From positions 2,016 to 66,015 of the forward strand of contig JALWRR010000076.1 of NCBI GenBank assembly GCA_026993975.1: DNA of 64,000 bases, given 5' to 3'. Below the pieces are notes generated by a model. That model saw only the letters and a list, made by a program, of their open reading frames with translations. It did not search any database and was not told the origin of the DNA. Numbering within the stretch: the stretch's first letter is position 1; each line of letters begins with the position of its first letter. The DNA comes from Promethearchaeati archaeon. GTDB lineage: Archaea > Asgardarchaeota > Njordarchaeia > Njordarchaeales > Njordarchaeaceae. Both the position numbers and the translations under genes were made by a program. This document shows positions 13,583 to 52,809 of the stretch, piece after piece.

Positions 13583-13834
13583 ATGGATGAGTTACTACTG
13601 TGGCTCTATGACTATGATAAACTAGCTTACTATAAAGCATGTACTTCTCTTACTTATGAAGATCTTAAAGAGGCTGCGATACTCAAACTGGAGATTGCCA
13701 CCAGCCATTACTACGATATATTTAAAATAACAGCCCAAGCATTTGGAAACGAGGTTAAAGACAGTCCTAAAAAGAAATCTAACCTCCCAAAAGCTGGGTT
13801 TGATCAAATAGCAGCATTTATAGGAGCTATGTAA
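13583..13834 (+). CDS. Tail assembly chaperone candidate (83 aa).
   Basis: Position only. Its stop overlaps the tape measure start (TAATG). Confidence 0.45.
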   Translation: MDELLLWLYDYDKLAYYKACTSLTYEDLKEAAILKLEIATSHYYDIFKITAQAFGNEVKDSPKKKSNLPKAGFDQIAAFIGAM

Positions 13835-30620: not shown

Positions 30621-31010
30621 ATGCCAATGTCTTCATATTTACGGGAAAAGTTAGCTCAGCATACTTTTGCTCAAACTGCCTATACTATGCCCACTAATGT
30701 GTACCTAGCAGCTTTCACTCAGCCACTAAATACTACCTCAGGTATTACTGATGAGGTATCTGGTGGTGGCTATTCTAGAGTTGATATTACTGGCTTACTA
30801 GATGAATCAGATGGGGTTATTACTAATAATGATTTAATAAAATTTAACGTGGCTACAGCTGATTGGGGAGATATATATGCTCTAGCTGTAATGGATTCTA
30901 TAAGTGGTAGTAACATTTTAATCTATTCTAATCTTGATACACCAGTTACTATTAATACTTCCAGTGTTTTAGGGTTCTTTGCTGGAGACTTTGTAACTAC
31001 CTTCAGATAG
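30621..31010 (+). CDS. Tail component (129 aa).
   Basis: Position only. Confidence 0.45.
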   Translation: MPMSSYLREKLAQHTFAQTAYTMPTNVYLAAFTQPLNTTSGITDEVSGGGYSRVDITGLLDESDGVITNNDLIKFNVATADWGDIYALAVMDSISGSNILIYSNLDTPVTINTSSVLGFFAGDFVTTFR

Positions 31011-40014: not shown

Positions 40015-40414
40015 AGTCTACCTCCCTTTCAAATACTTCAATTTCATCCCAATTAATGGATGCTTTTTTACCTTTAAATTTTTCATCAATAAAGTTAAAT
40101 GGAACAAAGTAAAACTTATTCCATGGAATCTGATGAATAATAAATACCTCTTTGGCACCAGCTGCTCGCCAATACCGTCCAAAACCAACTTGTTTTTTAC
40201 TAATGTTTTTTAGTGGAAATCTAGCTATATCATTTGTAGACTTGATCTCTACAAGCCAAACTTGTCCTTTATGTACTAGCATTCTATCTGCAGGTTGGGC
40301 CTGTACAAAATTCCTAGCAGCATAGGTGTCAGTAAACTTATACCAGACTATACCAAGCTTATTTTTGTACATATCATCAAAGATAGCTTCAGTTTTCTTA
40401 CCACTGTTTCTCAT
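39998..40414 (-). CDS. PD-(D/E)XK-type nuclease candidate (139 aa).
   Basis: D...VWLVEIKS motif. Start moved to MRNSGKK, which has a GAGGAG RBS; the 5' 50 codons of the longer ORF are low-complexity. Confidence 0.4.
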   Translation of the reverse strand: MRNSGKKTEAIFDDMYKNKLGIVWYKFTDTYAARNFVQAQPADRMLVHKGQVWLVEIKSTNDIARFPLKNISKKQVGFGRYWRAAGAKEVFIIHQIPWNKFYFVPFNFIDEKFKGKKASINWDEIEVFEREVDYEFYR

Positions 40415-40790
40415 AAACAATCTCCTCATAATCTTCATATGGAACTGAAACCATCTTTCTATAGTAAGAAGGTACAGTGAAAGTTGGCCCGTCAACTTCA
40501 AAGTAAGTCTTATGGATAATAAGTCTATCTGGTGGATAAGTGTAAAGAAACTTAGGTCCACCAAGATTTACTTGACAATCATCTGTGGGGGCTCCTACAT
40601 ATATAGCTTCAGGTAAATCAATAAAAGACTTTGGTAAGGAAGCAAAGGTCCTAAAGCCACAGGCACAAATTTTATTTTTTACAAAAAATCTAAGCCAATT
40701 CTTATCAGACTTAGGACCCCAAGCAACACTGCCATTTCTATCTGCATAAGCCCAATTGCTGCTTACTAACAGCACGCCAATACAAGCCAT
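40398..40790 (-). CDS. Secreted/periplasmic protein (130 aa) with N-terminal signal peptide.
   Basis: MACIGVLLVSSNWAYA signal-like N-terminus with an AGGAG RBS. Confidence 0.4.
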   Translation of the reverse strand: MACIGVLLVSSNWAYADRNGSVAWGPKSDKNWLRFFVKNKICACGFRTFASLPKSFIDLPEAIYVGAPTDDCQVNLGGPKFLYTYPPDRLIIHKTYFEVDGPTFTVPSYYRKMVSVPYEDYEEIVYEKQW

Positions 40791-40972
40791 AATGGTGCTC
40801 CTAGTATAGTAATTAACCATAAAAATGGATTATATGATTTTTCATCATATTCAAATACAGACACTACTAATACAATGTCCACAGCAAGAAGAAACCAAAA
40901 ATACACAGGATTAAATAAGTATAATCCATAGTATACTCCTAATAATGCAATTAGAATAACTACTTGTTTCAT
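40766..40972 (-). CDS. Small membrane protein (68 aa, 2 TM).
   Basis: Hydrophobic ORF. Confidence 0.4.
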   Translation of the reverse strand: MKQVVILIALLGVYYGLYLFNPVYFWFLLAVDIVLVVSVFEYDEKSYNPFLWLITILGAPLWLVLACC

Positions 40973-41223
40973 GATCTTGGAACCTCTATATGATACTTTG
41001 TCTTAAGATACATCTTAATATCTTCAAACAGTTGTTTATATTCTCCAAGTTTCTTTTTCTTGGCTTTACTATGAAGAATTTTCCATGCTTGTACTAGCTG
41101 CTCCTTAGTTTTATCCTCTAACTCAGGTATAACTTTTTTAGGAGTTGAAGTAGCCTTCAAATCCATTCTGAGTTTGAGAGTCTTCTTTTCCTCTTTCTTT
41201 TTCTTTGGTAATTTAAGCTTCAT
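40969..41223 (-). CDS. Lys-rich small basic protein (84 aa).
   Basis: ORF; about 30% Lys. Confidence 0.4.
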   Translation of the reverse strand: MKLKLPKKKKEEKKTLKLRMDLKATSTPKKVIPELEDKTKEQLVQAWKILHSKAKKKKLGEYKQLFEDIKMYLKTKYHIEVPRS

Positions 41224-41647
41224 CTACTTCTACCCCCATACTTTCAAGATAAACTAGAACGTCTTCATACTCTTCCTTAACTTCATTATATACTAGCCGC
41301 TTAACTCCAAATAATACTAAGTTTTTAGCACATTCATAACATGGAGCTAAAGTAACATACGCTGTAGCTCCTCTAGCTTTACCATTGGCTCTAGAAAGTG
41401 CATTCATTTCGGCATGATTTACTCTCCAATGTTCTGTATTGCCCTCTTCATCTTCACAGCGGTTCTCATCGCCTGGGGCAGTGCCGTTTGTTCCCATAGC
41501 AATGAACTCACGGTCTTTTACTAAAACACAGCCTACCTGTGCTTTTCGGCAATGAGATTGCGTTGCTATTAACTCTGCCATTTCAATCCAAAATTCATCA
41601 GACCACGACTTTTGGCAAGAGTCCTTTTGTAACATTCTTGGGGTCAT
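41213..41647 (-). CDS. dCMP deaminase.
   Basis: Zinc-deaminase motifs HAEMNAL and PCYECAK. Size fits. Confidence 0.8.
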   Translation of the reverse strand: MTPRMLQKDSCQKSWSDEFWIEMAELIATQSHCRKAQVGCVLVKDREFIAMGTNGTAPGDENRCEDEEGNTEHWRVNHAEMNALSRANGKARGATAYVTLAPCYECAKNLVLFGVKRLVYNEVKEEYEDVLVYLESMGVEVDEA

Positions 41648-42428
41648 AGTTAAGTCCTTTCGTTAATTCTACTATATGATCTACAAAGTCATCAGGATCT
41701 TCAATAATATCATGAACAGTGAATGTATGTCTAAATACGTACTCCTTTGAATCTTTAGTATCAGAGTCTAAAAGAGCTTCAACTGCTGGAATTTGATTAT
41801 CATAGATATGACCATGAGCTATTGTATACATCATATGTCCAAGATCTACATCAAGGCTATTAGCAAATGCTTGGCCAAGGAGAGTATACATCATTAAATC
41901 GTAAGGGAACCCATACAAGAGATCATTTGAACGCACATGTAAAACCATCTCTAAACGGTTATCTAAGATCAAATATTGACTTGCCCAAGGACAAGGAATA
42001 TTTAATGCTGGAGTTACATTATCTTCTCTAGGGTCCCAACTAAGTAAGAGCTGCTGCCTAGAACTAGGATCGTTTGTTAATTTATTTATGATGTTATTCA
42101 CCTGATCAATACCAAAGGCATGTCTCCAACGGTAGCCGTAAGCTCGTTCTACTTGGCCATCTACTGCAAACTCATCCCAAATACTTGTATATTTCTGAAG
42201 CCATTTGATAGACTTTCTACCACTAAGTTTCCAAGCTACTTCAGCAGCTGCAGTCTTAGTATACATAGGTCTAAGATCAGATAGTGGTATATGATCTAAC
42301 TGCCACTTAAATGCTGCTCCAAAGAAAGCATGAACCGTAGTATCTGTTCTTTGATTATACTGTTCTACTCCGCTATATGCTTTGTCAAGAAGATCTAAAT
42401 AAAGATCATCAAATGTACAATTATCCAT
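41598..42428 (-). CDS. Thymidylate synthase family enzyme carrying Asp in place of the ThyA Asn177 equivalent. Predicted dCMP-specific hydroxymethylase or methyltransferase.
   Basis: ThyA motifs YGYRWRHAFG, LSWDP, catalytic PC, RSND, HGHIYDNQ. In the substrate-specificity position the sequence is FPYDLMMY instead of PFNIASY. Confidence 0.8.
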   Translation of the reverse strand: MDNCTFDDLYLDLLDKAYSGVEQYNQRTDTTVHAFFGAAFKWQLDHIPLSDLRPMYTKTAAAEVAWKLSGRKSIKWLQKYTSIWDEFAVDGQVERAYGYRWRHAFGIDQVNNIINKLTNDPSSRQQLLLSWDPREDNVTPALNIPCPWASQYLILDNRLEMVLHVRSNDLLYGFPYDLMMYTLLGQAFANSLDVDLGHMMYTIAHGHIYDNQIPAVEALLDSDTKDSKEYVFRHTFTVHDIIEDPDDFVDHIVELTKGLNYDPKNVTKGLLPKVVV

Positions 42429-44310
42429 AAAGTTTCTCCTTCATATTTTCAATGCTTAGATCTCCATGAAGTTCACGTTGATCTCCAAAATTAGGCCCAA
42501 TAGAACTCTCGGCAATAATAGGAACTTTAAATCCAGGAGGAGTTCTTTCCATTATTTCTTTTACTTTCGGCAAGTACTTAGCTGCGGCTTCGACTGTACA
42601 CGAGAAGACAAATTCATCGTGCACTGGTGCAATAAAAGTGAAGTCATTCTGAAATAGAATACCTTCATCTAACAGACTGACAAGTGCAGCTCTCATTAGT
42701 TCAGCACAACTGCCCTGAATTGTGTGATTAAGAGCTTGATTTTCAGCTTCTGCTCTAAGTGCTTTTATAGGACTAGTAATATTTGGAAAATATCTCGGTC
42801 TTCCAAACAGAGTATAAGCAACTTTATTAGCTTTAGCATAGGCCTTCACACTGTTCACATAGTCATAGAAATAACCTTTATAACCTATTTTATGTGCTTG
42901 AAGGAACATTTCTGCTTCAGCTTCAGAACAATCGAGTAGATCATAAGCAGCTAGCCTTCTAGCTTGAGCGCCATACAAAGCTGCAAAGTTAAGTGTCTTA
43001 CCACGCTGTCTATGTTTCTTTTGTTCAGGGTCATCTTTTTCAAGAAGCTCTTTCATCTCTTCATAAGACAGCCCGCTAAGGTTAGTTCCAGAAACTGTAT
43101 GAAGATCTTTACCAGTAAGATAAGCATCTAGAAGTTTAGGGTCCTCAGACATATGTGCTGCCATTCTAAGTTCAATTTGAGACCAGTCAATTGATACAAT
43201 ACAGTCATGGCCTTCAAATGGAATAAAAATATCTCTAACTTTTTTGCCCTCTCCGCGTTTAGCAACCTGTTGAAGATTAGGAGAACTCATAGAGAATCTT
43301 CCAGACTGTGTACCAGTTTGTCTAATCTCACTGTGAAGTTTTCCATCAGGATAAAGAAGCTTAGGATAAGGTCGATAATATAGCTTTTGACGCGTCTCAA
43401 TTTTCCTTAATTCACCAAAGGCTTTAATAACTGGATAGTCTTTTCCATACTTAACCTCTAGCTCATATAAAGACTCTTTATCAGTTGAAGGTTGGCCAGT
43501 TTTATGAGAAACTTTATAAGGCTTAAGACCAAGATCATTAAATAGGAAATTAGCGACTTGCTTTGGACTATTTAAATTCAAAGCTGCAAGTTCTGGAAAG
43601 TCAGCAAGAATTTTATTTTTAGTCTGAATATCTTCAGCTTGAATACGATCAAGAGTATTAAGATCAATTACCTGGCCTTGACGATAGTGATCTACTACAA
43701 CTCTGATAATGTCTTCTTCAAAAATTTCATAGTAATCCATATCAATTTTATCTACAAGCCATTCATATAGCTTGTAAGTCCAGATAACATCTTCAGTTCC
43801 ATATTTGTAGCCTTCTTCAGCAGTGATATCTTTCATAGTGCCACTGCCTACTGTATCAGCATAGGAAGACATTTGATGATTAAATCTTAGTTTTACAAGC
43901 TGCTTCAATCCTTGAGGAATATTAGAATTATAAAGGAAATGCATAACCATTGTATCATACAGACGTCCAGTGTAGTTAATTCCATAGTTTTTAAGAATTC
44001 CTATTTCAAAAGATAAGTTATGCCCGATTATGCCCTCAGGGGCTTTATTCATGATCTTACTGATGCCTTCTTTACCAATAAAATCATCACCTTTATGCTG
44101 TATGTCAAAGTAATAAACTCTTCCATCATCAGTTTGAATCTGGAATGCCACCATTTTAGAGTGTAGTCTATCTAATGGTCGTTGTTTTTTAGAAAGATCC
44201 TGAAACCACTGCCCTTCATAAGGATTGTAGGTTTCAAAGTCTATACACCACAGTTTCTCATTTCCAAGTTGGCTAAGTGCCTCTTCGAAGTTATGTTTAT
44301 TTACAAGCAT
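42421..44310 (-). CDS. DNA polymerase I (family A) with 3'-5' exonuclease domain.
   Basis: Motif B RGKTLNFAALYG, motif C VHDEFVF, N-terminal exonuclease region. Confidence 0.9.
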   Translation of the reverse strand: MLVNKHNFEEALSQLGNEKLWCIDFETYNPYEGQWFQDLSKKQRPLDRLHSKMVAFQIQTDDGRVYYFDIQHKGDDFIGKEGISKIMNKAPEGIIGHNLSFEIGILKNYGINYTGRLYDTMVMHFLYNSNIPQGLKQLVKLRFNHQMSSYADTVGSGTMKDITAEEGYKYGTEDVIWTYKLYEWLVDKIDMDYYEIFEEDIIRVVVDHYRQGQVIDLNTLDRIQAEDIQTKNKILADFPELAALNLNSPKQVANFLFNDLGLKPYKVSHKTGQPSTDKESLYELEVKYGKDYPVIKAFGELRKIETRQKLYYRPYPKLLYPDGKLHSEIRQTGTQSGRFSMSSPNLQQVAKRGEGKKVRDIFIPFEGHDCIVSIDWSQIELRMAAHMSEDPKLLDAYLTGKDLHTVSGTNLSGLSYEEMKELLEKDDPEQKKHRQRGKTLNFAALYGAQARRLAAYDLLDCSEAEAEMFLQAHKIGYKGYFYDYVNSVKAYAKANKVAYTLFGRPRYFPNITSPIKALRAEAENQALNHTIQGSCAELMRAALVSLLDEGILFQNDFTFIAPVHDEFVFSCTVEAAAKYLPKVKEIMERTPPGFKVPIIAESSIGPNFGDQRELHGDLSIENMKEKLYG

Positions 44311-45029
44311 AGTATAATTCCTTTATCCGCCAGCCACTGCATATAGTCACCAGTTGTACCTAGCTGTCTAAACCAAATATAGTCTGTATATGGCAGTGCC
44401 AATCGCCAAGACATTCTAACTTGATCGTTTATTAAATCATCATCCAAACCTCTTTCAAGACAGTAGATTAAGTGCTCCCTATCACCATAGGTTAGTTTTT
44501 CCCAAGCTTTAGGTCCAAAGCCTCTTTTACCAGGAATTTTGTCAGAAGGATCTCCAACCAGTGCTTTATAAAGATAGATATGAGCTGGAACTGCTTTAAA
44601 CTTAGTCCATACCATATCTTTATCAACCTTAGTTGTAGCATTCAATAGAATTGTAACACCATAGTCAATCAAAGGCCAAAGGTCTTTATCATTAGAGATA
44701 ACTATATCAGTAGATCTAACGTTATCGGCAATCCAATCATCAGCTTCTCCAGTTTCCATTTCAACTAAAGTAGTCTCTGGAAACATAAGAAACAGTTCTT
44801 TGATATTGTTATAGACCTCCCAATAGACTGGATCATCACCAGTATTTCTTCCTTGTTTGTACTTCTCATAGATACTTCGTCTATAGTCTCTAGACCGTGG
44901 TCCATCACAGACCAAGATCTTTTCTCCGGGCTTTTGAAATAATTCCAAAGCCAAGTTATATGGGTTGCCACCACCATGATAAACCCGCTTTATATAGTTA
45001 TGTGCATCTATGATTGTTCTCATAGCCAT
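44301..45029 (-). CDS. 5'-3' exonuclease / flap endonuclease.
   Basis: Typical FEN/53EXO N-terminal pattern (ILVCDGPRSRDYRRSIYEKYKQGR) and acidic clusters. Confidence 0.8.
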   Translation of the reverse strand: MAMRTIIDAHNYIKRVYHGGGNPYNLALELFQKPGEKILVCDGPRSRDYRRSIYEKYKQGRNTGDDPVYWEVYNNIKELFLMFPETTLVEMETGEADDWIADNVRSTDIVISNDKDLWPLIDYGVTILLNATTKVDKDMVWTKFKAVPAHIYLYKALVGDPSDKIPGKRGFGPKAWEKLTYGDREHLIYCLERGLDDDLINDQVRMSWRLALPYTDYIWFRQLGTTGDYMQWLADKGIILCL

Positions 45030-45493
45030 ATCCTTTCAATTTCAATATCAAAGTTAAACTCAACCAAGTTTATAGCCTCTTCATAAGCTTTACGCTGTAA
45101 TTCGTATCCAAATGCTTCAAAGATGTCATCTTTATCATATTCTTCAAAAGGCTCATTTTTAAGATAGATAATTTTGTCTGGCATATTATCCTTGTATACT
45201 ACACTTTTATACAAGTTAAGGATAATTATAGGATTCATATTACCCAGTAAATATCCTTGGTATACTAGCATAGATACAATATCTCTATCAAGCACGAAAT
45301 GCTCAGGGGGATTTTGCCAGAGTTCCATTGTATTGGCAAAGAATAGAAAAGTACTAGCAGTGCCAGTGACATCGCCGTTAAGAAGGATTGAGCGATAAGG
45401 CTCAGAGGGTAAATGAAGAAAATCTGGGTCTAGCTCTTTGCAGTATGTTGTCTTACCTGTTTTATCAGGGCCTTCTACGATTATTTTAGCCAT
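45020..45493 (-). CDS. tmk: Thymidylate kinase-like dNMP kinase (157 aa).
   Basis: P-loop EGPDKTGKTT and the Tmk DR...S..YQG motif (LDRDIVSMLVYQG). Confidence 0.7.
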   Translation of the reverse strand: MAKIIVEGPDKTGKTTYCKELDPDFLHLPSEPYRSILLNGDVTGTASTFLFFANTMELWQNPPEHFVLDRDIVSMLVYQGYLLGNMNPIIILNLYKSVVYKDNMPDKIIYLKNEPFEEYDKDDIFEAFGYELQRKAYEEAINLVEFNFDIEIERIWL

Positions 45494-46360: not shown

Positions 46361-46437
46361 TGGTGGATAAAGTAGGACTTGAACCTACGACCGCCCCGTT
46401 ATGAGCGGGGAGCTCTAACCAACTGAGCTATTTATCC
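46361..46437 (-). tRNA. tRNA-Met (anticodon CAT), elongator-like (G1-C72 pair). Could also be tRNA-Ile2 if the anticodon is modified.
   Basis: Full cloverleaf by hand: acceptor GGATAAA/TTTATCC, D-stem GCTC/GAGC, anticodon loop CTCATAA, T-loop TTCAAGT, encoded CCA. Confidence 0.85.
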
Positions 46438-46629: not shown

Positions 46630-47133
46630 CTAAATTCCTTTGTTGTTGTAATAAACTTTTTTAACTTGTTTTTCATCTGCCTCTTTAATTTTGTTATTTT
46701 GTCTCAAAGCTCCATATAAACCACTACATTTCTTAGAACAAAAGAACCCTTTTCTACCAGATCTGAATTGACTTCTAGTTGGTATAAATTCTTTTTTACA
46801 GATAGTACACTTTACAGGTAAATATTTAACTCTTTTAGCATCAAGTTTAGCATGTACTTTTCTATCTAATACTTGCAAATTTTGTATATCATTATTAAGA
46901 TAATCTTTATCTATGTGATCTACAGTTTCATTTTTTTCTAATCTTCTGTTTAAATACACCTCCATAATAGCTTTTGGATAAGATATAGTTTTTAACTTAC
47001 CACTTTCATACTTACTCTTACTAGTATTATTCAATACAATATGCTGTCTTCCATCTTTACGAGTATAAGGACCTAAAACAGTCTTATACTCAGGGTACAA
47101 CATTAGTAGTTTAGCTTTAAAATCTTCTGTCAT
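46630..47133 (-). CDS. HNH-family homing endonuclease.
   Basis: VDHIDKDYLNNDIQNLQVLDRKVH motif plus a Cys-rich C-terminus. Free-standing between two tRNA genes. Confidence 0.65.
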   Translation of the reverse strand: MTEDFKAKLLMLYPEYKTVLGPYTRKDGRQHIVLNNTSKSKYESGKLKTISYPKAIMEVYLNRRLEKNETVDHIDKDYLNNDIQNLQVLDRKVHAKLDAKRVKYLPVKCTICKKEFIPTRSQFRSGRKGFFCSKKCSGLYGALRQNNKIKEADEKQVKKVYYNNKGI

Positions 47134-47147
47134 AATTACTCCTTTTG

Positions 47148-47239
47148 GTGCGGGTAGTGGGAGTCGAACCCACGATGTGAACTTATCTGTGTGGCGTTTT
47201 AAGCGCCATGCGTTTCAACCAGCTTCGCCATACCCGCGT
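47148..47239 (-). tRNA. tRNA-Leu (anticodon TAA), type II with long variable arm, encoded CCA.
   Basis: Cloverleaf by hand: acceptor GCGGGTA/TACCCGC, anticodon stem TGGCG/CGCCA, loop CTTAAAA, 17-nt variable arm, T-arm GTGGG-TTCGACT-CCCAC. Confidence 0.85.
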
Positions 47240-47391: not shown

Positions 47392-47931
47392 TTAGAGACT
47401 TTTAAGAAAGCCAAATTTCATCCCGAGAATTAACTTCTCTTTATCACTGAGACCTCTTATAGCTTCAATAGCATGTTTTATCTCATCTTCATGTTCTATA
47501 ACATCTTCTATGTCATTATCTTCTTGTACCTCCCAGTCTCCAGTATGCTCTGTAGTCAGCTCAAGTACTTGGCGTATCTTAGCTACAGGTTCTTGTAATT
47601 CTTTAGCTATTAACTCTACATCAGGTTCATAACCCAAACTCAAAATAAAATTCTCCATAAACTTGAATACTTTTAACTTCAACTGCACTATATGAGCAGG
47701 AAGTCTTATAGTTCTAGATTTAGAGGTTACAGCGTCTAGTATAGCCTGCTTAACCCAAAAAGTAGCATAAGTAGAAAATTTAACCCCACGATCAGGATCA
47801 AAATGTTTCACTGCTTGAATCAATCCAATATACCCCTCTTGAACTAAATCTTCATAGGGTATATTATTGTTTTTGTATTTCCTTGCTATGTACTTTGCAA
47901 TATACAGGTGATCTCTAATTAAATCGTCCAT
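47392..47931 (-). CDS. Sigma-70 family sigma factor (179 aa) with regions 2-4.1 but no region 4.2.
   Basis: Region 2: DLVQEGYIGLIQAVKHFDPDRGVKFSTYATFWVKQAILDAV. Region 4.1-like: LSDKEKLILGMKFG. The protein stops right after that. Confidence 0.8.
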   Translation of the reverse strand: MDDLIRDHLYIAKYIARKYKNNNIPYEDLVQEGYIGLIQAVKHFDPDRGVKFSTYATFWVKQAILDAVTSKSRTIRLPAHIVQLKLKVFKFMENFILSLGYEPDVELIAKELQEPVAKIRQVLELTTEHTGDWEVQEDNDIEDVIEHEDEIKHAIEAIRGLSDKEKLILGMKFGFLKSL

Positions 47932-49319
47932 GATTGAGCTTCCTCAGCAGTGATTTTATTTTTCCAGAATATACTCTGATCCTCTTTACCTTTTAATACC
48001 TGTTCGAGATAATTAATATTTTCTCTGATACCGCGAACAAGCGATACAGCTGGTGTATCTTTGGCCACAAAAATAAATACATTTACCTCATGTTCTTGAC
48101 CTGGTCTATGTGTCCTATCTATACCTTGCCAAAAAGAATCCACTACATAATCAAGCTCAAAGAATATTACATTATGACACTGCTGAAAGTCAAGCCCAAC
48201 TCCAGCTGATAAAGGGTTCGCTAAAAGTATTTGGGCTTCTCCAGACTTAAACTTTGATACTGCCTCGTCTTTCTTTTTAGACTGACCATGAAGCTCTACA
48301 AAGTCATAGTCTTTAAGATGTTCAGCTAGTAGTTTCATAGTATTCTGAAAGTGAGCATAGATTATTACTTGCTCGCCTTTTAGATCTTCTAAGAGTAAAT
48401 CAAGCATCTCAAAGTATGCTGACTTTTCTTTTAGTTCAAGTATAGATGGATCCATCATTGCTTGTCGCACCCGCATCATCAATGCCATTCCATCTAAAAA
48501 TTCAGCTGTATTAGACATTTCTACAAAACCAAAGTCCCACAGTTCTTTTAGTTTGTCTCTATGTTTATCACTAAGCGAAAATTGTTTAATGATAAGTTGC
48601 TTTTTAGGAAGCTCAAGAACTTCACTTTTAATTAATCTGCGGGTATATAACCCAAGTAGTTTATTAAGGGTCTCTAAATTCTTCCACCCAACAATGATTC
48701 TAAATCCACTGTCAGTTGGGGCATAAACAGCATGATGTTTTAGGAAGTTCTTCTTAGTAACGTAAGCATTAGGGTTCATTAACTGTATAATATAGAAAGC
48801 ATCCACAGGATATTTAGTAACTGGAGTTCCACTCATTAGTACTAGATATTCTACTTTTCTTTTAAATGACTGCACGCAGCCAAATAAATTCATATTTCCA
48901 GTCTTGGGGCTTACTTTTACTTCGCCTATCTTTAATTTTTGACTTTCGTCGCACACTAACATGTTAAAATGTGAATCCCTGAATCGATTATAGTCTCTTT
49001 GAAATATATTATACGATGTAAGTACTATGTCATATTTTTCAAAGTTTATACTTTTTCTTTTAGGACCATGATATATGACTGTCTTCAAGTTTGTATGAAA
49101 ATACTCGTATATCTTGTCATACCAAGTCTGCAGTAGAATTGGAGGAACTACAACTAGTGGCTTAACATTTTCCATTTCTATTAGATATGTCATTGCCATT
49201 AGTACTCCAAAGGTTTTACCAACCCCTGGATCATGTAGTATGCCACACTGCTTAAGGTCTATAATATAGTTCATATCGTCTATTTGATACTGATAAGGCT
49301 CAAGAGCTAACTCTGTCAT
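47919..49319 (-). CDS. SNF2-family helicase.
   Basis: GVGKTF, DESQKLK (DExx), MSGTPVTK, and helicase C motifs. Confidence 0.8.
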   Translation of the reverse strand: MTELALEPYQYQIDDMNYIIDLKQCGILHDPGVGKTFGVLMAMTYLIEMENVKPLVVVPPILLQTWYDKIYEYFHTNLKTVIYHGPKRKSINFEKYDIVLTSYNIFQRDYNRFRDSHFNMLVCDESQKLKIGEVKVSPKTGNMNLFGCVQSFKRKVEYLVLMSGTPVTKYPVDAFYIIQLMNPNAYVTKKNFLKHHAVYAPTDSGFRIIVGWKNLETLNKLLGLYTRRLIKSEVLELPKKQLIIKQFSLSDKHRDKLKELWDFGFVEMSNTAEFLDGMALMMRVRQAMMDPSILELKEKSAYFEMLDLLLEDLKGEQVIIYAHFQNTMKLLAEHLKDYDFVELHGQSKKKDEAVSKFKSGEAQILLANPLSAGVGLDFQQCHNVIFFELDYVVDSFWQGIDRTHRPGQEHEVNVFIFVAKDTPAVSLVRGIRENINYLEQVLKGKEDQSIFWKNKITAEEAQSWTI

Positions 49320-52072
49320 TTCTTACCTCCAAAGTTATCCATCAGTAGCCCCATGAGTCTGGCACCACTTAGGCTTATACCTATAGTTACTCTCACTTTA
49401 CCTGGAACAATTTTATCAATTCTTTCAGGCTTTTTAACAGTATAGGTTTTTTGTGCCAGCTGTGCTAAGAAACTTGACCTATCAGTTAAGTAAATATCAA
49501 GATTGAACTTCTTAACATACTGAGATAAGTTTCTATAGACAGCAAATACATCAAGATAAAGAATATCACCTTCTACTTTGTAGTGTCTATTAGGCATAAG
49601 AGCAAGATCACCAAGAGATGTATCCATCATATCTGCTAAGTCATTAATAGTAGCAAGAGCATTAGTAATATCATCAGTCTTTCTAATCTCATTATGAATA
49701 GCTTGACTGTCACTAGTGAAGCTGTTCTTATATTTATCCATCTTAGCCTGAAGCTGATCAACTAGCCTTTCATCCCCTGTATAAAGTAGTACAAATTGCT
49801 GTAAGAAATCCATAGCTGTAAGTAAGTTAGCTAGGTTTCTTCTAGGTCTATTATCAAATATATTAGGATATTTCTGATCTAGCTCCTGATCATATCGATA
49901 ACAAACTTCAGTATATTCATTTGGTCTAACTCTCATGGCAAATTCAAGAAATAATGCTCCAATTTTTTCCACGGGGAGTTGCTTTAACTCTATCAGAGCT
50001 TTTGTGCCTTCTGGTGTATGAGTTGCTTTATCCATTTGAACTAATATAGTTCTATCTAACACTGCTCCTTCATTAAGCATCTGCTCACCAATAATGGCCA
50101 AAGGAGCAATAAAAGGAGTCTGCTCAATATCTCTTTGTGCTGTTCCTCTTGATTCAAATGTTTTATTATACGAAGCACGTATAGCTGAAGAGACCATAGC
50201 AGTCTCACTATTCTTTTTCACATTTGCTGAAGGTTTAAACTCATCAAAAACCAACGGCATTAAATTAGTAGCTGAGGCATACTTATTCATTGAAAAGGCA
50301 GTTGTAGCACTAATAGACGGAAAAGATGGATTTCTAGGTGCAAATAACCTATGCAACTGTAGCATAGTTTGAGTTTTACCTGACCCATGTATACCAGTTA
50401 CAAATAGACTTGGGCTTGTTTCATACGTAAATTGAGCATGTGGATTAAAGAAGGCATTAAAATACCAAGACATTAATGGCATAATTACCTCTGCCACGTT
50501 CATTCTAGACATCCTATCTATAACCTGAATAATCTCACTAGCACTAGGCTCTTCAGTAGAAAAGTTCAATCTAGTAAAGTTTGCTAGATTCACGTCAGTT
50601 CTAGTCTTTATAAGATCAATAGTGCCATTTAAAGATACAGAGCCTTCTGAAGTGACATAATGCCACTCATCATTTCTCCAGACCAGGCCAGTATAGTCTA
50701 TCTCATTAACCTCTTTTGGGTTACTTAAATGAGCTATTGCAAGTCTCAACATGTTCAATTCCTTTTCACTGCCCAAATACATAGTATAAAGTCCAAGTAT
50801 ATGAGTTTGAAACTGCTGTTTAGATAGTAGCACAGTAGCATCCAAAGTTTGAACACCTTCTGATCTACCATCTACAACCACTTCAATTTCTATAGACTTT
50901 GACTTATTGCCATTTGTATGCTCTCTTGTTATAATCTTATGAAGCTTGACTATAAAATTGGTCAACTTCCTATGAGGCATATTCGCATCTTCTGGAATTA
51001 TCCAATAACATCCATCTTTTATATAAACAGTATCGTGACGTTCTTCAGCCTCTTGAACCTTTATAGTACAGGCATTACAGTCTATTCTATCCACACAGCT
51101 GAGCATCATCTTACAGCCAAATTTAAACTTACTAGGATGCTCTTTAGCATAGTCATATAAGGCTCTAAAATGGTCCTCTAATGCTGCTGGAGTTCTATAC
51201 TGCGATGATCTATACTCATTAATAAAGGTTCTATTATAGCTAATAATCTGATCTATATCCCAGCCTTTAGCTATGCCATAAGATATAGCTTGCATGGTTA
51301 GAAGATTACTATTTACATTTGACTTTACATCTTGATTTCTAGCAAGTTTAACTACACACTCAGGAGTCTCTGTTTCTTTAATAACATTATCAGGAACAGG
51401 TTCTGTTACTTTTGCTAGGTCTACTACCTTCTTTGTAGACATAAACCAAGACGTAAGTAATTGATTCTTAGCTACTTTATTAAACTTTGGTGGAACAGGC
51501 CCAGGTTGCTTAACTCTTTCAATTATAGTATCAATGTCTATAGTATCAAAATCTGGTAACCAAACTTTGTAATTGCCATTTTCTCTTTGCACGTTTACAC
51601 GACGCCACTGTCTACCTTTTCCAGTAGAATATACGCCCATGTCGATATGTAGATGCTCACCTACATCCTGCTTAATTCTAGCAGCCATAGTTCTGTATCT
51701 AAGCGGCAGTCCTGGTCTAAACTTATTATCCATGTATAAATAAGGATTTAGTTCAAAATGAAAACCTTTACCACCTGAAGCATATACCCTATAGTCTAGG
51801 TCTGTTCCAAAGTTTTGCTTAAAGTAGAGAACAATATCCCTCATATCAGCAAATGCATCTCTAAGGTCTTCTGAGTCTATATCAATATAAAATGGGCCCC
51901 AGTACTCTTGTTCAACTCCAGCTGCTTCAGCATCTTCAGCTCTATATTTTACATAAAGAACTGACTCATATTTAGCATTAGCTGGTATTTGTTCTTCAGG
52001 TACACACTGCCATTTGTCTTTATGGTCTACGTGATAGTATTTCAACATAGGCAGATTCCTTGGAGTAGCCAC
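49316..52072 (-). CDS. Primase-polymerase / D5-like SF3 helicase fusion (918 aa).
   Basis: C-terminal Walker A VTGIHGSGKTQT and Walker B VFDEF. Large N-terminal domain. Position next to the helicase and polymerase genes. Confidence 0.7.
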   Translation of the reverse strand: MATPRNLPMLKYYHVDHKDKWQCVPEEQIPANAKYESVLYVKYRAEDAEAAGVEQEYWGPFYIDIDSEDLRDAFADMRDIVLYFKQNFGTDLDYRVYASGGKGFHFELNPYLYMDNKFRPGLPLRYRTMAARIKQDVGEHLHIDMGVYSTGKGRQWRRVNVQRENGNYKVWLPDFDTIDIDTIIERVKQPGPVPPKFNKVAKNQLLTSWFMSTKKVVDLAKVTEPVPDNVIKETETPECVVKLARNQDVKSNVNSNLLTMQAISYGIAKGWDIDQIISYNRTFINEYRSSQYRTPAALEDHFRALYDYAKEHPSKFKFGCKMMLSCVDRIDCNACTIKVQEAEERHDTVYIKDGCYWIIPEDANMPHRKLTNFIVKLHKIITREHTNGNKSKSIEIEVVVDGRSEGVQTLDATVLLSKQQFQTHILGLYTMYLGSEKELNMLRLAIAHLSNPKEVNEIDYTGLVWRNDEWHYVTSEGSVSLNGTIDLIKTRTDVNLANFTRLNFSTEEPSASEIIQVIDRMSRMNVAEVIMPLMSWYFNAFFNPHAQFTYETSPSLFVTGIHGSGKTQTMLQLHRLFAPRNPSFPSISATTAFSMNKYASATNLMPLVFDEFKPSANVKKNSETAMVSSAIRASYNKTFESRGTAQRDIEQTPFIAPLAIIGEQMLNEGAVLDRTILVQMDKATHTPEGTKALIELKQLPVEKIGALFLEFAMRVRPNEYTEVCYRYDQELDQKYPNIFDNRPRRNLANLLTAMDFLQQFVLLYTGDERLVDQLQAKMDKYKNSFTSDSQAIHNEIRKTDDITNALATINDLADMMDTSLGDLALMPNRHYKVEGDILYLDVFAVYRNLSQYVKKFNLDIYLTDRSSFLAQLAQKTYTVKKPERIDKIVPGKVRVTIGISLSGARLMGLLMDNFGGKK

Positions 52073-52253
52073 TTTCTATAAGTTCTTTATATATCAAAAG
52101 CTCATCTAATGCCTGATCTGAATACAATCCTTTTCCTATATTTCCAGGAATAACACCTTTCTTGGCTTTTATACCCAAGTCTGCACAGATATTATAAATG
52201 GTAGGTTTACTGTATCCAGTCTTTTCTACTAAGTCTTCAATCGTCAAAGACAT
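52020..52253 (-). CDS. Small HTH DNA-binding protein (77 aa).
   Basis: LTIEDLVEKTGYSKPTIYNI HTH-like segment. Confidence 0.5.
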   Translation of the reverse strand: MSLTIEDLVEKTGYSKPTIYNICADLGIKAKKGVIPGNIGKGLYSDQALDELLIYKELIESGYSKESAYVEILSRRP

Positions 52254-52809
52254 TTACTAAACTCCCTGGAACTATTTTAGTGCTATAGAAGACTTCCAAT
52301 TCATCATAAATTTCTGTGTAAGACTTACCATATAATGGCTCTAGATATGTGTTATCTTCTTTGCCATTCCAATCTTTTAAATACTTTCCTTCACGATAGC
52401 CATAGTCTTGACGAAGTTGATTTAATGCTTGTTTAGCAGTGATTACATCTACATATTTCTGATCACTTGCTAAAATAGAGTAGGCAATATCAATATACTT
52501 TCTGGAAGCAAGAAGATTAATGATAGTTTCTACAAGTTCAAAGTCATTACAAGGTAAGTCTACTACCTTAGAAGGCTTATCTATTTTGTCATCATAATAG
52601 GCTATATTAATAGCAAAAACAGCGATATCAATCAATTCGATTTCAATATTCTCTGCATCTCGTTCACTAGGCTTCCAAGTAAATACACCCATGCTATCTA
52701 TCATCTCACCTAATTCTGCTACTAAAGCCAAATACATCTCGGCTTTATTGGAATTCATATTCTCCTGAAACTCAAACTGTCGTCTGATGACTTCGGATAT
52801 TGTATTCAT
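52237..52809 (-). CDS. MazG-like / all-alpha NTP pyrophosphohydrolase candidate (190 aa).
   Basis: Acidic EE/ExxD helix pattern (ALVAELGEMIDS ... ENIEIELIDIAVF). The assignment is tentative. Confidence 0.4.
   Translation of the reverse strand: MNTISEVIRRQFEFQENMNSNKAEMYLALVAELGEMIDSMGVFTWKPSERDAENIEIELIDIAVFAINIAYYDDKIDKPSKVVDLPCNDFELVETIINLLASRKYIDIAYSILASDQKYVDVITAKQALNQLRQDYGYREGKYLKDWNGKEDNTYLEPLYGKSYTEIYDELEVFYSTKIVPGSLVNVFDD

What the first reader, a model, noticed from the sequence alone, without database searches (positions are those of the whole stretch)
41213..45493. Thymidylate-synthase homologue with the Asn->Asp specificity switch, in a nucleotide cluster: predicted cytosine-modified (hmC/5mC-type) phage DNA
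The enzyme is clearly thymidylate-synthase family. It has the YGYRWRHAFG, LSWDP, catalytic PC, RSND and HGHIYDNQ motifs. The catalytic Cys and the residue 31 positions downstream have ThyA spacing. At the position of E. coli ThyA Asn177 (PFNIASY) it reads FPYDLMMY, that is, Asp. In this family that Asn->Asp change is the classic determinant that switches substrate from dUMP to dCMP (T4 dCMP hydroxymethylase Asp179; XP12-type dCMP methyltransferases). It sits in one leftward operon with a dCMP deaminase, a Tmk-like dNMP kinase and DNA polymerase. A MazG-like pyrophosphatase further along at 52237-52809 could exclude the canonical dNTP. Together this looks like a pathway replacing dC with 5-hydroxymethyl- or 5-methyl-dC. 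No glycosyltransferase is visible in this window.
Basis: partly seen in the sequence, partly recalled or inferred. Interest (0 to 1): 0.8.

Follow-up and report, generated by a model that had tools for sequence, protein, structure and literature searches.

The report
Phage pathway replacing cytosine with 5-methylcytosine
An uncultured ~72-kb phage carries the same gene cassette as Xanthomonas phage Xp12 (a dCMP-methylating thymidylate-synthase relative, a deaminase and a small dihydrofolate reductase), so its DNA very probably has 5-methylcytosine instead of cytosine; this kind of system is already described.

Summary
ORF 41598-42428 (-) is a thymidylate-synthase (TS) family protein with Asp where E. 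coli ThyA has Asn177, and it lies in a tightly packed leftward gene run.

The product can be narrowed to 5-methyl-dCMP rather than 5-hydroxymethyl-dCMP:
- Active-site signature N143/C146/P147/D169/D177, F83 and a full ThyA-like C-terminal tail. This matches the Xp12 enzyme, which is reported to make 5mdC.
- T4 gp42 differs: it has D143 and no tail.
- In a neighbour-joining tree the protein groups with Xp12 and away from ThyA and the hydroxymethylases (98-100 of 100 bootstraps).
A DHFR is needed only if the TS reaction yields dihydrofolate.

In 60 viral loci with D177-type enzymes, 52 have the deaminase just downstream and 47 have a DHFR. In 24 N177/D143-type loci, none has either.

The contig has no second TS locus and no ThyX or glycosyltransferase detectable by Pfam. 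The deaminase therefore probably makes dT nucleotides from the 5-methyl-dC pool, as proposed for Xp12 and shown for mSCD-B5.

This is a new member of a known kind, in an uncultured lineage. Nothing chemical was tested here.

The parts
41598..42428 (-). Thymidylate-synthase homologue, predicted dCMP C5-methyltransferase (5-methyl-dCMP synthase, Xp12 type)
   Evidence: PF00303, E=2.9e-45. Signature in E. coli numbering: E58, W80, F83, Y94, N143, C146, P147, R166, D169, D177, H207, Y209, with a 70-residue C-terminal part ending LPKVVV. The Xp12 TS has the same residues at all twelve positions, and 71 of the 78 nearest database homologues (P0002-P0079) match at all of them. It groups with the Xp12 TS, apart from ThyA, T4 gp42 and D143-type enzymes, in 98-100 of 100 NJ bootstraps. 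Identity: 35% to Xp12 TS, 30% to E. coli ThyA, 20% to T4 gp42.
41213..41647 (-). Deoxycytidylate-deaminase family protein, immediately downstream of the TS gene and overlapping it by 50 nt as called. Predicted to deaminate 5-methyl-dC nucleotides to dT nucleotides.
   Evidence: PF00383, E=9e-22; PF14437, E=3.5e-16. HAE and PCxxC zinc motifs are in the translation. Nearest solved structure is the cyanophage S-TIM5 dCMP deaminase 4p9c, E=4.7e-18. It is 38% identical to the Xp12 deaminase, which sits in the same position. Its role is inferred from context and from bioRxiv 10.1101/2024.12.05.627091. The start codon is uncertain; the orthologues are 133-135 aa.
40398..40790 (-). Short (130 aa) divergent dihydrofolate reductase, predicted to recycle the dihydrofolate made by the methyltransferase
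   Evidence: No Pfam or PHROG hit. Profiles of its orthologues hit only DHFRs in the PDB (best E=0.002 and 3.7e-4). jackhmmer seeded with E. coli FolA recovers it (E=5.6e-7 in a small database). AlphaFold2 with 13 sequences gives pLDDT 94.9 and pTM 0.87. In Foldseek against the PDB, all 50 matches listed are DHFRs (E down to 5e-9, TM 0.65-0.77). W24 and D29, the positions I read as E. coli W22 and catalytic D27, are conserved; D29 is invariant.
45020..45493 (-). Short thymidylate-kinase-like dNMP kinase, predicted to phosphorylate 5-methyl-dCMP
   Evidence: PF02223, E=2.5e-7 (31 bits, cut-off 27). phrog_761 'thymidylate kinase', E=4.4e-12. P-loop GPDKTGKTT and DRD..S..VYQ motif in the translation. 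Conserved in position in L006-L008. Substrate is inferred.
42421..44310 (-). Family A DNA polymerase with 3'-5' exonuclease domain, the enzyme that would incorporate 5-methyl-dCTP
   Evidence: PF00476, E=1.1e-82; PF01612, E=3.6e-10. Directly upstream of the TS gene, with an 8-nt overlap. Its best cultured-phage match is only about 30% identical.
44301..45029 (-). 5'-3' exonuclease (FEN-like), part of the same gene run
   Evidence: PF02739, E=2.4e-12; PF01367, E=1.8e-5.
52237..52809 (-). All-alpha NTP pyrophosphatase of the dimeric-dUTPase / T4 gp56 family. Candidate dCTPase and/or dUTPase.
   Evidence: PF08761 dUTPase_2, E=3.3e-8. phrog_173, E=4.6e-10; T4 gp56 hits the same PHROG at E=5.8e-39. 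Nearest solved structures are dimeric dUTPases (1w2y, E=1.1e-10). No direct BLASTP similarity to gp56. Conserved in position in L006-L008.
40766..41223 (-). Two small ORFs (84 aa and 68 aa) of unknown function between the deaminase and DHFR genes
   Evidence: No Pfam or PHROG hit. The relatives have a single 94-104 aa ORF at this position.

Best explanation
The region is the nucleotide-modification module of an uncultured phage that very probably replaces deoxycytidine with 5-methyl-deoxycytidine before replication, in the manner of Xanthomonas phage Xp12.

Proposed steps:
1. The TS homologue (41598-42428) binds dCMP through Asp177. It methylates C5, using 5,10-methylene-tetrahydrofolate as both carbon donor and reductant. 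The products are 5-methyl-dCMP and dihydrofolate. This is predicted from the residue signature, the tree position and published assays of homologues.
2. The short DHFR (40398-40790) regenerates tetrahydrofolate. The fold is shown here; the activity is inferred.
3. The Tmk-like kinase (45020-45493) and host NDP kinase convert 5-methyl-dCMP to 5-methyl-dCTP. This is inferred.
4. The deaminase (41213-41647) converts part of the 5-methyl-dC nucleotide pool to dT nucleotides. This would explain why the phage carries no dUMP-specific thymidylate synthase. It is inferred by analogy with mSCD-B5 and Xp12.
5. The gp56-family NTP pyrophosphatase (52237-52809) may hydrolyse dCTP and/or dUTP, which would deplete the canonical nucleotide and supply dCMP. 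This is speculative.
6. The phage PolA (42421-44310) incorporates 5-methyl-dCTP.
For: 1. Asp at the Asn177 position is seen in every alignment. Published work says this switches the substrate to dCMP and marks C-modified viral contigs (PMC8670742).

2. The signature is N143/P147/D169/D177, F83, plus a ThyA-like C-terminal tail. It is identical to that of the Xp12 TS. That enzyme, and five of seven tested metagenomic homologues, produced 5mdC in E. coli (bioRxiv 10.1101/2024.12.05.627091).

3. The published marks of the alternatives are absent.
   - No Asp/Glu at position 143, which is Cys minus 3 (PMC6400193; PMC13326640).
   - The C-terminal tail is not lost.
   - There is no D169N change.

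4. In the NJ tree, window plus Xp12 are separated from ThyA, T4 gp42 and the D143 enzymes in 98-100 of 100 bootstraps.

5. A DHFR is part of the cassette. A DHFR is needed for the methylation chemistry and not for hydroxymethylation (PMC6400193).

6. Context statistics come from 60 D177-type and 24 N177/D143-type loci.
   - Deaminase within 500 nt downstream: 52 of 60 against 0 of 24.
   - DHFR within 2 kb: 47 of 60 against 0 of 24.
   - Xp12 itself has the order TS, deaminase, DHFR.

7. There is only one TS-family locus in the 71.8-kb contig (tblastn). No ThyX or glycosyltransferase is detectable by Pfam.

8. The whole module is syntenic in three relatives whose TS is 46-49% identical.
Against: No chemical evidence exists: this is an assembled metagenomic contig and the base composition of its DNA is unknown.

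Position 143 is a polar Asn, not the bulky hydrophobic residue that the published rule invokes to exclude water. The methyl call therefore rests on identity with Xp12, not on first principles.

Two of the seven D177 homologues tested in the preprint gave no detectable 5mdC.

Selectivity of such deaminases for 5mC is polyphyletic and not universal: 34 of 56 active enzymes were selective. It cannot be read from this sequence, whose nearest solved relative is an ordinary phage dCMP deaminase.

The DHFR lacks about 20-25 residues that longer orthologues have. By my reading of DHFR structure, these lie in the adenosine-binding subdomain, so its activity is uncertain.

The NTP pyrophosphatase resembles dUTPases more than gp56.

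The context counts come from related, non-independent loci, so the Fisher p-values (1.6e-14 and 5.5e-12) overstate significance.
Confidence: 0.7

Rival explanations
1. The TS homologue is a dCMP hydroxymethylase (T4 gp42-like). The DNA would contain 5-hydroxymethylcytosine, possibly decorated further by unrecognised enzymes.
For: Asp177 is shared with T4 gp42. Position 143 is polar (Asn), not hydrophobic. Many ORFs in the contig have no annotation. Two of the seven tested D177 homologues in the preprint did not give 5mdC.
Against: - The acidic residue at Cys minus 3 is missing, and the D145N mutant of T4 dCH is inactive (PMC6400193).
- The C-terminal tail that seals the TS active site for hydride transfer is present, whereas gp42 ends about 40 residues earlier.
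- Identity to gp42 is only 20%, against 35% to the Xp12 enzyme.
- The protein is separated from all D143 enzymes in 100 of 100 bootstraps.
- A DHFR in the cassette is unnecessary for hydroxymethylation.
- No glycosyltransferase or carbamoyltransferase was found by Pfam.
Confidence: 0.08
2. The TS homologue and deaminase together are only an alternative route to thymidylate (dCMP to 5-methyl-dCMP to dT nucleotides), or the enzyme still methylates dUMP. The packaged DNA would keep ordinary cytosine.
For: The phage has no other thymidylate synthase, so making dT is a sufficient reason to keep the pair. No enzyme here is proven to exclude dCTP, and the pyrophosphatase looks most like dUTPases. Nothing in the sequence shows the modification directly. 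Palindrome avoidance is weak and uninformative.
Against: In the published metavirome screens, contigs with a D177 TS plus an in-cis deaminase were enriched in the DNA fraction resistant to C-modification-sensitive enzymes. The characterised phages with this cassette, Xp12 and PaMx74, replace C completely with 5mC. A dedicated kinase and polymerase sit in the same gene run.
Confidence: 0.15
3. The enzyme makes another C5 product such as 5-hydroxy-dCMP, like the flavin-dependent RB69 gp48 and DLP3 gp80 type.
For: It is a D177 TS homologue in a phage, and this chemistry was only recently found within the family (PMC13326640).
Against: The diagnostic D169N substitution is absent, since Asp169 is retained. 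Position 143 is not Glu. There are no arabinosyl or glycosyl transferases or NDP-sugar genes. The DHFR neighbour points to folate chemistry.
Confidence: 0.02

Closest known systems
Xanthomonas phage Xp12 5-methylcytosine system: TS-homologue dCMP methyltransferase, downstream deaminase and DHFR. Also reported for Pseudomonas phage PaMx74 and the metagenomic mSCD-B5 contig.
   Same: The active-site signature is identical: N143, C146, P147, D169, D177, F83 and the C-terminal tail. The two fall in the same clade. The gene order TS, deaminase, DHFR on one strand is the same. A family A polymerase lies nearby. There is no second thymidylate synthase.
   Different: The TS is only 35% identical and the deaminase 38%. 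The phage backbone is unrelated: megablast finds no match, and the best cultured-phage match to PolA is about 30% identical. GC content is 37% against 68%. Here the DHFR is a 130-aa shortened form separated from the deaminase by two small ORFs. This lineage adds a Tmk-like kinase and a gp56-family pyrophosphatase that tblastn did not find in the 55 kb of Xp12 examined. Xp12 carries a ribonucleotide reductase that is absent here.
T4 gp42 dCMP hydroxymethylase pathway (gp42, gp1 dNMP kinase, gp56 dCTPase, glucosyltransferases)
   Same: Both are pre-replicative cytosine-replacement pathways built on a TS homologue with Asp at position 177. Each has a phage dNMP kinase. The pyrophosphatase belongs to the same PHROG as gp56.
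   Different: gp42 has D143 and T147 and lacks the C-terminal tail. It is 20% identical and lies in a different clade. The window has no glycosyltransferase, and its kinase is Tmk-like.
Canonical ThyA (E. coli, PDB 1an5/2tsc and others)
   Same: Same fold and catalytic apparatus (E58, Y94, C146, R166, S167, D169, H207, Y209), a C-terminal tail, and the predicted reductive methylation chemistry.
   Different: N177 is replaced by D, H147 by P, L143 by N and W83 by F. The predicted substrate is dCMP, not dUMP.
mSCD-B5 and related 5mC-selective deaminases (bioRxiv 10.1101/2024.12.05.627091)
   Same: Both are small single-domain PF00383/PF14437 deaminases encoded directly beside a D177 TS homologue, with PolA in the neighbourhood.
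   Different: Selectivity is polyphyletic. The nearest solved relative of the window protein is the S-TIM5 dCMP deaminase, not the PBCV-1 enzyme named for mSCD-B5.

Membership tests
Thymidylate synthase superfamily (Pfam PF00303) | Significant profile match and conserved catalytic residues (E58, Y94, C146, R166, S167, D169, H207, Y209 in E. coli numbering) | tested here: met
   PF00303, E=2.9e-45. All eight residues are present.
Canonical dUMP-methylating ThyA | Asn at position 177, which recognises uracil O4/N3 | tested here: not met
   Asp in HMMER and MAFFT alignments.
Canonical dUMP-methylating ThyA | His147, Leu143 and Trp83 lining the active site | tested here: not met
   The residues are P147, N143 and F83.
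Xp12-type dCMP methyltransferase (5-methyl-dCMP synthase) | Asp177 together with a non-acidic residue at 143 and a retained Asp169 | tested here: met
   N143/D169/D177, identical to the Xp12 TS. The rules come from PMC13326640 and PMC8670742.
Xp12-type dCMP methyltransferase (5-methyl-dCMP synthase) | ThyA-like C-terminal tail that closes the active site for hydride transfer | tested here: met
   70 residues follow H207 and the protein ends LPKVVV. Xp12 has 64 (KPEVIE), E. coli 58 (KAPVAI) and T4 gp42 31.
Xp12-type dCMP methyltransferase (5-methyl-dCMP synthase) | Phylogenetic grouping with the experimentally characterised Xp12 enzyme | tested here: met
   NJ tree on 267 columns. Window plus Xp12 are separated from ThyA, gp42 and the D143 enzymes in 98-100 of 100 bootstraps. 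This is a distance method only.
Xp12-type dCMP methyltransferase (5-methyl-dCMP synthase) | Cassette with a downstream deaminase and a DHFR | tested here: met
   The deaminase overlaps the TS stop and the DHFR lies 778 nt downstream. Both are on the same strand as the TS gene. Xp12 has the same order.
Xp12-type dCMP methyltransferase (5-methyl-dCMP synthase) | Production of 5-methyl-dCMP and dihydrofolate from dCMP and methylene-THF | not testable with these tools
   Needs an enzyme assay or an in vivo LC-MS assay.
T4-type dCMP hydroxymethylase | Asp/Glu three residues before the catalytic Cys (E. coli position 143), which activates the substrate water | tested here: not met
   Asn, in the motif ALNIPC. 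The signature is defined in PMC6400193.
T4-type dCMP hydroxymethylase | Absence of the C-terminal tail | tested here: not met
   The tail is present.
T4-type dCMP hydroxymethylase | Ser/Thr two residues before the conserved Tyr94-equivalent | tested here: not met
   The window has Arg (ERAY). However, Xp12 has Ser and many clade members have Thr, so this feature does not discriminate.
5-hydroxy-dCMP synthase (RB69 gp48 / DLP3 gp80 type) | D169N substitution | tested here: not met
   Asp169 is retained in RSND. The rule comes from PMC13326640.
5mC-selective nucleotide deaminase (mSCD) | dCMP-deaminase fold with zinc motifs, encoded in cis with a D177 TS homologue | tested here: met
   PF00383/PF14437. 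HAE and PCxxC motifs. The gene is adjacent to the TS gene.
5mC-selective nucleotide deaminase (mSCD) | Preference for 5-methyl-dCTP or 5-methyl-dCMP over dCTP or dCMP | not testable with these tools
   The trait is polyphyletic and no sequence marker has been published.
Dihydrofolate reductase (chromosomal FolA type) | DHFR fold | tested here: met
   AF2 model with pLDDT 94.9. All 50 Foldseek PDB matches listed are DHFRs, with E down to 5e-9 and probability 1.00.
Dihydrofolate reductase (chromosomal FolA type) | Catalytic acidic residue (E. coli Asp27) and the Gly-Gly motif | tested here: met
   D29 and G77-G78 are invariant in the orthologue alignments. The residue equivalence to E. coli is my reading of those alignments.
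Dihydrofolate reductase (chromosomal FolA type) | Match to the curated DHFR family profile and a complete NADPH (adenosine) binding subdomain | tested here: not met
   No Pfam hit at E<=0.01. About 20-25 residues are missing relative to the 151-157-aa orthologues.
T4 gp56-type dCTPase/dUTPase | Membership of the same all-alpha NTP pyrophosphatase family | tested here: inconclusive
   Both match phrog_173 (window E=4.6e-10, gp56 E=5.8e-39). The window protein matches PF08761. Direct BLASTP is not significant (E=0.64), and the nearest solved structures are dUTPases.
T4 gp56-type dCTPase/dUTPase | Hydrolysis of dCTP | not testable with these tools
   Needs an enzyme assay.

The most novel reading that the evidence does not exclude
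5-methylcytosine may be only the starting point in this uncultured lineage. Some of the many unannotated ORFs could modify it further. Alternatively, the lineage-specific additions could form a self-sufficient variant of the pathway with different cofactor or substrate use from Xp12. Those additions are the truncated 130-aa DHFR lacking part of the segment I read as its adenosine-binding region, the short Tmk-like kinase and the gp56-family pyrophosphatase. The genome-wide CpG depletion (O/E 0.43), which Xp12 does not show, could be connected.
Probability: 0.1. Interest if true: 0.6.

Novelty: new member of a known kind. Interest (0 to 1): 0.33.

Why it matters
If confirmed, this contig and its syntenic relatives would add an uncultured ~70-kb phage lineage to those predicted to replace cytosine completely with 5-methylcytosine. 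That substitution blocks many host restriction enzymes.

The case also shows that residue 143, the C-terminal tail and the linked DHFR can separate methylating from hydroxymethylating TS homologues by sequence alone.

Practical value is modest. The linked deaminase is a candidate 5mC-selective deaminase of the kind now used for methylome sequencing, and the 130-aa protein is an unusually small DHFR.

The principle itself has been published already, so the finding is confirmatory rather than surprising.

Tried and rejected
- Megablast of the 4.3-kb region against 50,697 phage records found no match. No cultured relative is available to borrow chemistry from.
- BLASTP of the pyrophosphatase against T4 gp56 was not significant. 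Only family-level links were found.
- tblastn of the Tmk-like, pyrophosphatase and short-DHFR proteins against 55 kb of Xp12 gave no significant hit. The last 8.6 kb of Xp12 was not fetched.
- phmmer of the single short-DHFR sequence against the PDB gave only E of about 1.
- AlphaFold2 with two sequences gave pLDDT 38 and was discarded.
- The look-up of encoding contigs failed for two structural proteins, probably because of start-codon differences.
- Palindrome and restriction-site avoidance was uninformative. Median O/E was 0.92-0.96, the lowest was CATG at 0.73, and no site was absent.
- The promoter/terminator scan was at chance level and adds nothing beyond gene packing.
- The Ser/Thr-x-Tyr 'hydroxymethylase signature' was considered and rejected as a discriminator, because the 5mC-making Xp12 enzyme has it.
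- A 5-hydroxy-dCMP synthase was considered and rejected on D169.

Full report
**Source and gene content**

The window is 64 kb of a 71,832-bp metagenomic viral contig (ENA ERZ23491061, scaffold_298). The exact TS-like protein is on record only there and in two other assemblies. The minus strand from about 37 kb to 64 kb carries the replication and nucleotide-metabolism genes, and the plus strand from 3 to 37 kb carries structural genes.
- deaminase, 41213-41647
- TS homologue, 41598-42428
- PolA, 42421-44310
- 5'-3' exonuclease, 44301-45029
- Tmk-like kinase, 45020-45493
- an all-alpha NTP pyrophosphatase of the dUTPase_2 family, 52237-52809

The genes from 45493 down to 40766 overlap or abut one another. 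A 24-nt coding gap then precedes the DHFR-like gene described below, which overlaps the RecU-like gene. No intergenic terminator-like site lies between 45493 and 39998.

**The observation**

The TS homologue matches Pfam PF00303 at E=2.9e-45. HMMER alignments to solved ThyA structures put 'YGFPYDLMMY' opposite E. coli 'LGLPFNIASY'. The Asn177 position is therefore Asp, and His147 is Pro. Three separate MAFFT alignments agree.

**Which product**

Three published rules can be applied, using E. coli numbering.
1. N177D gives dCMP specificity and is the top discriminator of C-modified viral contigs (PMC8670742).
2. An acidic residue at 143, three residues before the catalytic Cys, activates water and marks hydroxymethylases. 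So does loss of the C-terminal tail. The D145N mutant of T4 dCMP hydroxymethylase is inactive (PMC6400193; PMC13326640).
3. D169N marks the flavin-dependent 5-hydroxy-dCMP synthases (PMC13326640).

The window protein reads N143, C146, P147, D169, D177 and F83. Seventy residues follow H207, and the protein ends LPKVVV, which resembles E. coli KAPVAI. This is exactly the signature of the Xp12 enzyme. T4 gp42 reads D143/T147 and stops about 40 residues earlier. The Xp12 enzyme and five of seven metagenomic D177 homologues were shown to put 5mdC into E. coli DNA (bioRxiv 10.1101/2024.12.05.627091).

Of the 78 nearest database homologues, 71 share the signature at all twelve positions examined. The more distant homologues switch to D143/N147/N177, which is the expected dUMP hydroxymethylase pattern. 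A neighbour-joining tree on 267 columns groups the window protein with Xp12. It is separated from ThyA, gp42 and all D143 enzymes in 98-100 of 100 bootstraps. Identity is 35% to Xp12, 30% to E. coli ThyA and 20% to gp42.

One caveat applies. Asn143 is not the bulky hydrophobic residue that the published rationale invokes. The methyl call therefore rests on identity with a characterised enzyme, not on mechanism.

**A missed gene: a short DHFR**

The 130-aa ORF at 40398-40790 (-) has no Pfam or PHROG hit. By eye it resembled DHFR, and several tests bear this out.
- Profiles of 5 and of 13 orthologues hit only DHFRs in the PDB (best E=0.002 and 3.7e-4, near full length).
- jackhmmer seeded with E. 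coli FolA over the ORFs of all fetched loci recovers it, together with 40 Xp12-type DHFRs.
- A two-sequence AlphaFold model was useless (pLDDT 38). With 13 sequences the model reached pLDDT 94.9 and pTM 0.87.
- In Foldseek against the PDB, all 50 matches listed are DHFRs (E down to 5e-9, TM 0.65-0.77).
- D29, which I read as the equivalent of the catalytic Asp27, is invariant, as is the Gly-Gly motif.

The protein lacks about 20-25 residues that the 151-157-aa orthologues have, so its activity is plausible but not assured.

A DHFR matters here because reductive methylation yields dihydrofolate, whereas hydroxymethylation yields tetrahydrofolate (PMC6400193).

**Context statistics**

A scan of IMG/VR returned 80 loci. 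The statistics pool these with Xp12, three syntenic relatives and the window itself. One duplicate locus was removed, leaving 60 D177-type and 24 N177/D143-type loci.

| Feature | D177-type (n=60) | N177/D143-type (n=24) |
|---|---|---|
| Deaminase within 500 nt downstream, same strand | 52 | 0 |
| DHFR within 2 kb | 47 | 0 |
| Both | 42 | 0 |

The loci are related to one another, so the Fisher p-values overstate independence, but the contrast is complete. Xp12 itself has the order HAD hydrolase, TS, deaminase, DHFR. The preprint reports the same neighbourhood for C-modified contigs: TS, deaminase, PolA and a MazG-like pyrophosphatase.

**The deaminase**

It belongs to PF00383/PF14437. It is 38% identical to the Xp12 deaminase, and its nearest solved relative is the minimal dCMP deaminase of cyanophage S-TIM5.

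The contig has a single TS-family locus, and no ThyX is detectable by Pfam. A dUMP-producing deaminase would therefore feed only the host enzyme.

The published proposal is that such deaminases convert 5-methyl-dCTP to dTTP. mSCD-B5 does this with strong selectivity. The proposal for Xp12 cites labelling data in which labelled cytosine ends up in both 5mC and thymidine. I adopt this as the likeliest role. However, selectivity is polyphyletic (34 of 56 active enzymes) and cannot be read from the sequence.

**Kinase and pyrophosphatase**

The 157-aa kinase is a short Tmk relative (PF02223, E=2.5e-7; phrog_761, E=4e-12). A role in phosphorylating 5-methyl-dCMP is inferred. From memory, a phage-induced 5-methyl-dCMP kinase was reported for Xp12, but I did not verify this.

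The 190-aa pyrophosphatase shares phrog_173 with the T4 gp56 dCTPase. It has no direct BLASTP similarity to gp56, and it is closest to dimeric dUTPases in the PDB. Its role in excluding dCTP is therefore only a possibility.

Both genes are conserved in position in the three syntenic relatives L006-L008. Among the IMG/VR loci, the kinase was detected only in L009, which comes from the same contig as L008. The pyrophosphatase was detected in none, but at about 9-10 kb upstream it lies beyond the 6-kb flanks of those loci. Neither was detected in the 55 kb of Xp12 examined.

**Lineage**

There is no nucleotide match to any of 50,697 phage records, and the best cultured-phage match to PolA is about 30% identical. 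The closest cultured-phage TS homologues, at 32-38% identity, are in Achromobacter, Xanthomonas (including Xp12), Roseobacter RDJL-type, Ruegeria and Pseudomonas siphoviruses. The module is syntenic in contigs of 68-76 kb from other metagenomes, whose TS is 46-49% identical.

**Verdict**

It can be sharpened to an Xp12-type 5-methylcytosine replacement pathway with a TS-deaminase-DHFR core. This kind of system was described in 2021-2024, so the window adds a new member in an uncultured lineage and not a new mechanism.

My confidence declines along the chain of inference:

| Claim | Confidence |
|---|---|
| dCMP is the substrate | about 0.9 |
| 5-methyl-dCMP is the product | about 0.8 |
| 5mC largely replaces C in virion DNA | about 0.7 |
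| The deaminase is selective for 5-methyl-dC nucleotides | about 0.55 |

No chemistry was or could be tested here.

Noticed in passing
window 1-64000 (also L006, L007, L008, L010, L012): Strong, uniform CpG depletion. CpG O/E is 0.43 in the window (0.35-0.58 per 8-kb block), with GpC at 1.24 and no clear TpG/CpA excess. Relatives range from 0.16 to 0.57. Xp12 (1.02) and a T4 region (0.95) are not depleted, so this is not a general trait of C-modified phages. It is unexplained and may reflect the host dinucleotide signature.
   Followed up: partly
window 40398-40790 (-): The DHFR homologue is only 130 aa. It lacks about 20-25 residues that the 151-157-aa orthologues in L008, L010, L011 and L012 have; by my reading these lie in the adenosine-binding subdomain. 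No Pfam or PHROG model detects it.
   Followed up: yes
window 46361-46437 (-) and 47146-47237 (-): Two tRNA genes, tRNA-Met (CAT) and tRNA-Leu (TAA), sit inside the replication module and flank an HNH endonuclease ORF at 46630-47133.
   Followed up: no
window 13834-25575 (+): A single 3,913-aa ORF with a phage minor-tail (tape-measure-like) domain at residues 1780-1982. It is unusually large for a ~72-kb genome. A Gp80 domain ORF (fibre protein of podophage GP4) lies at 30621-31010.
   Followed up: no
window 47392-47931 (-) and 49316-52072 (-): The phage encodes its own sigma-70 region-2 protein (179 aa) and a 918-aa primase-like protein that matches phage primase PHROGs. Both are conserved in the syntenic relatives.
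   Followed up: no
window 41598-41647 (-): As called, the deaminase ORF overlaps the 3' end of the TS gene by 50 nt. In relatives the deaminase starts at or just after the TS stop and is 133-135 aa, so the true start here may be an internal Met.
   Followed up: partly
L065-L088 (IMG/VR loci) and P0080-P0120: The more distant TS homologues recovered are about 305-430 aa, carry D143/N147/N177 and have long, unrelated C-terminal extensions. This is the expected pattern for dUMP hydroxymethylases. They are often near a PolA and never next to a deaminase or DHFR.
   Followed up: partly
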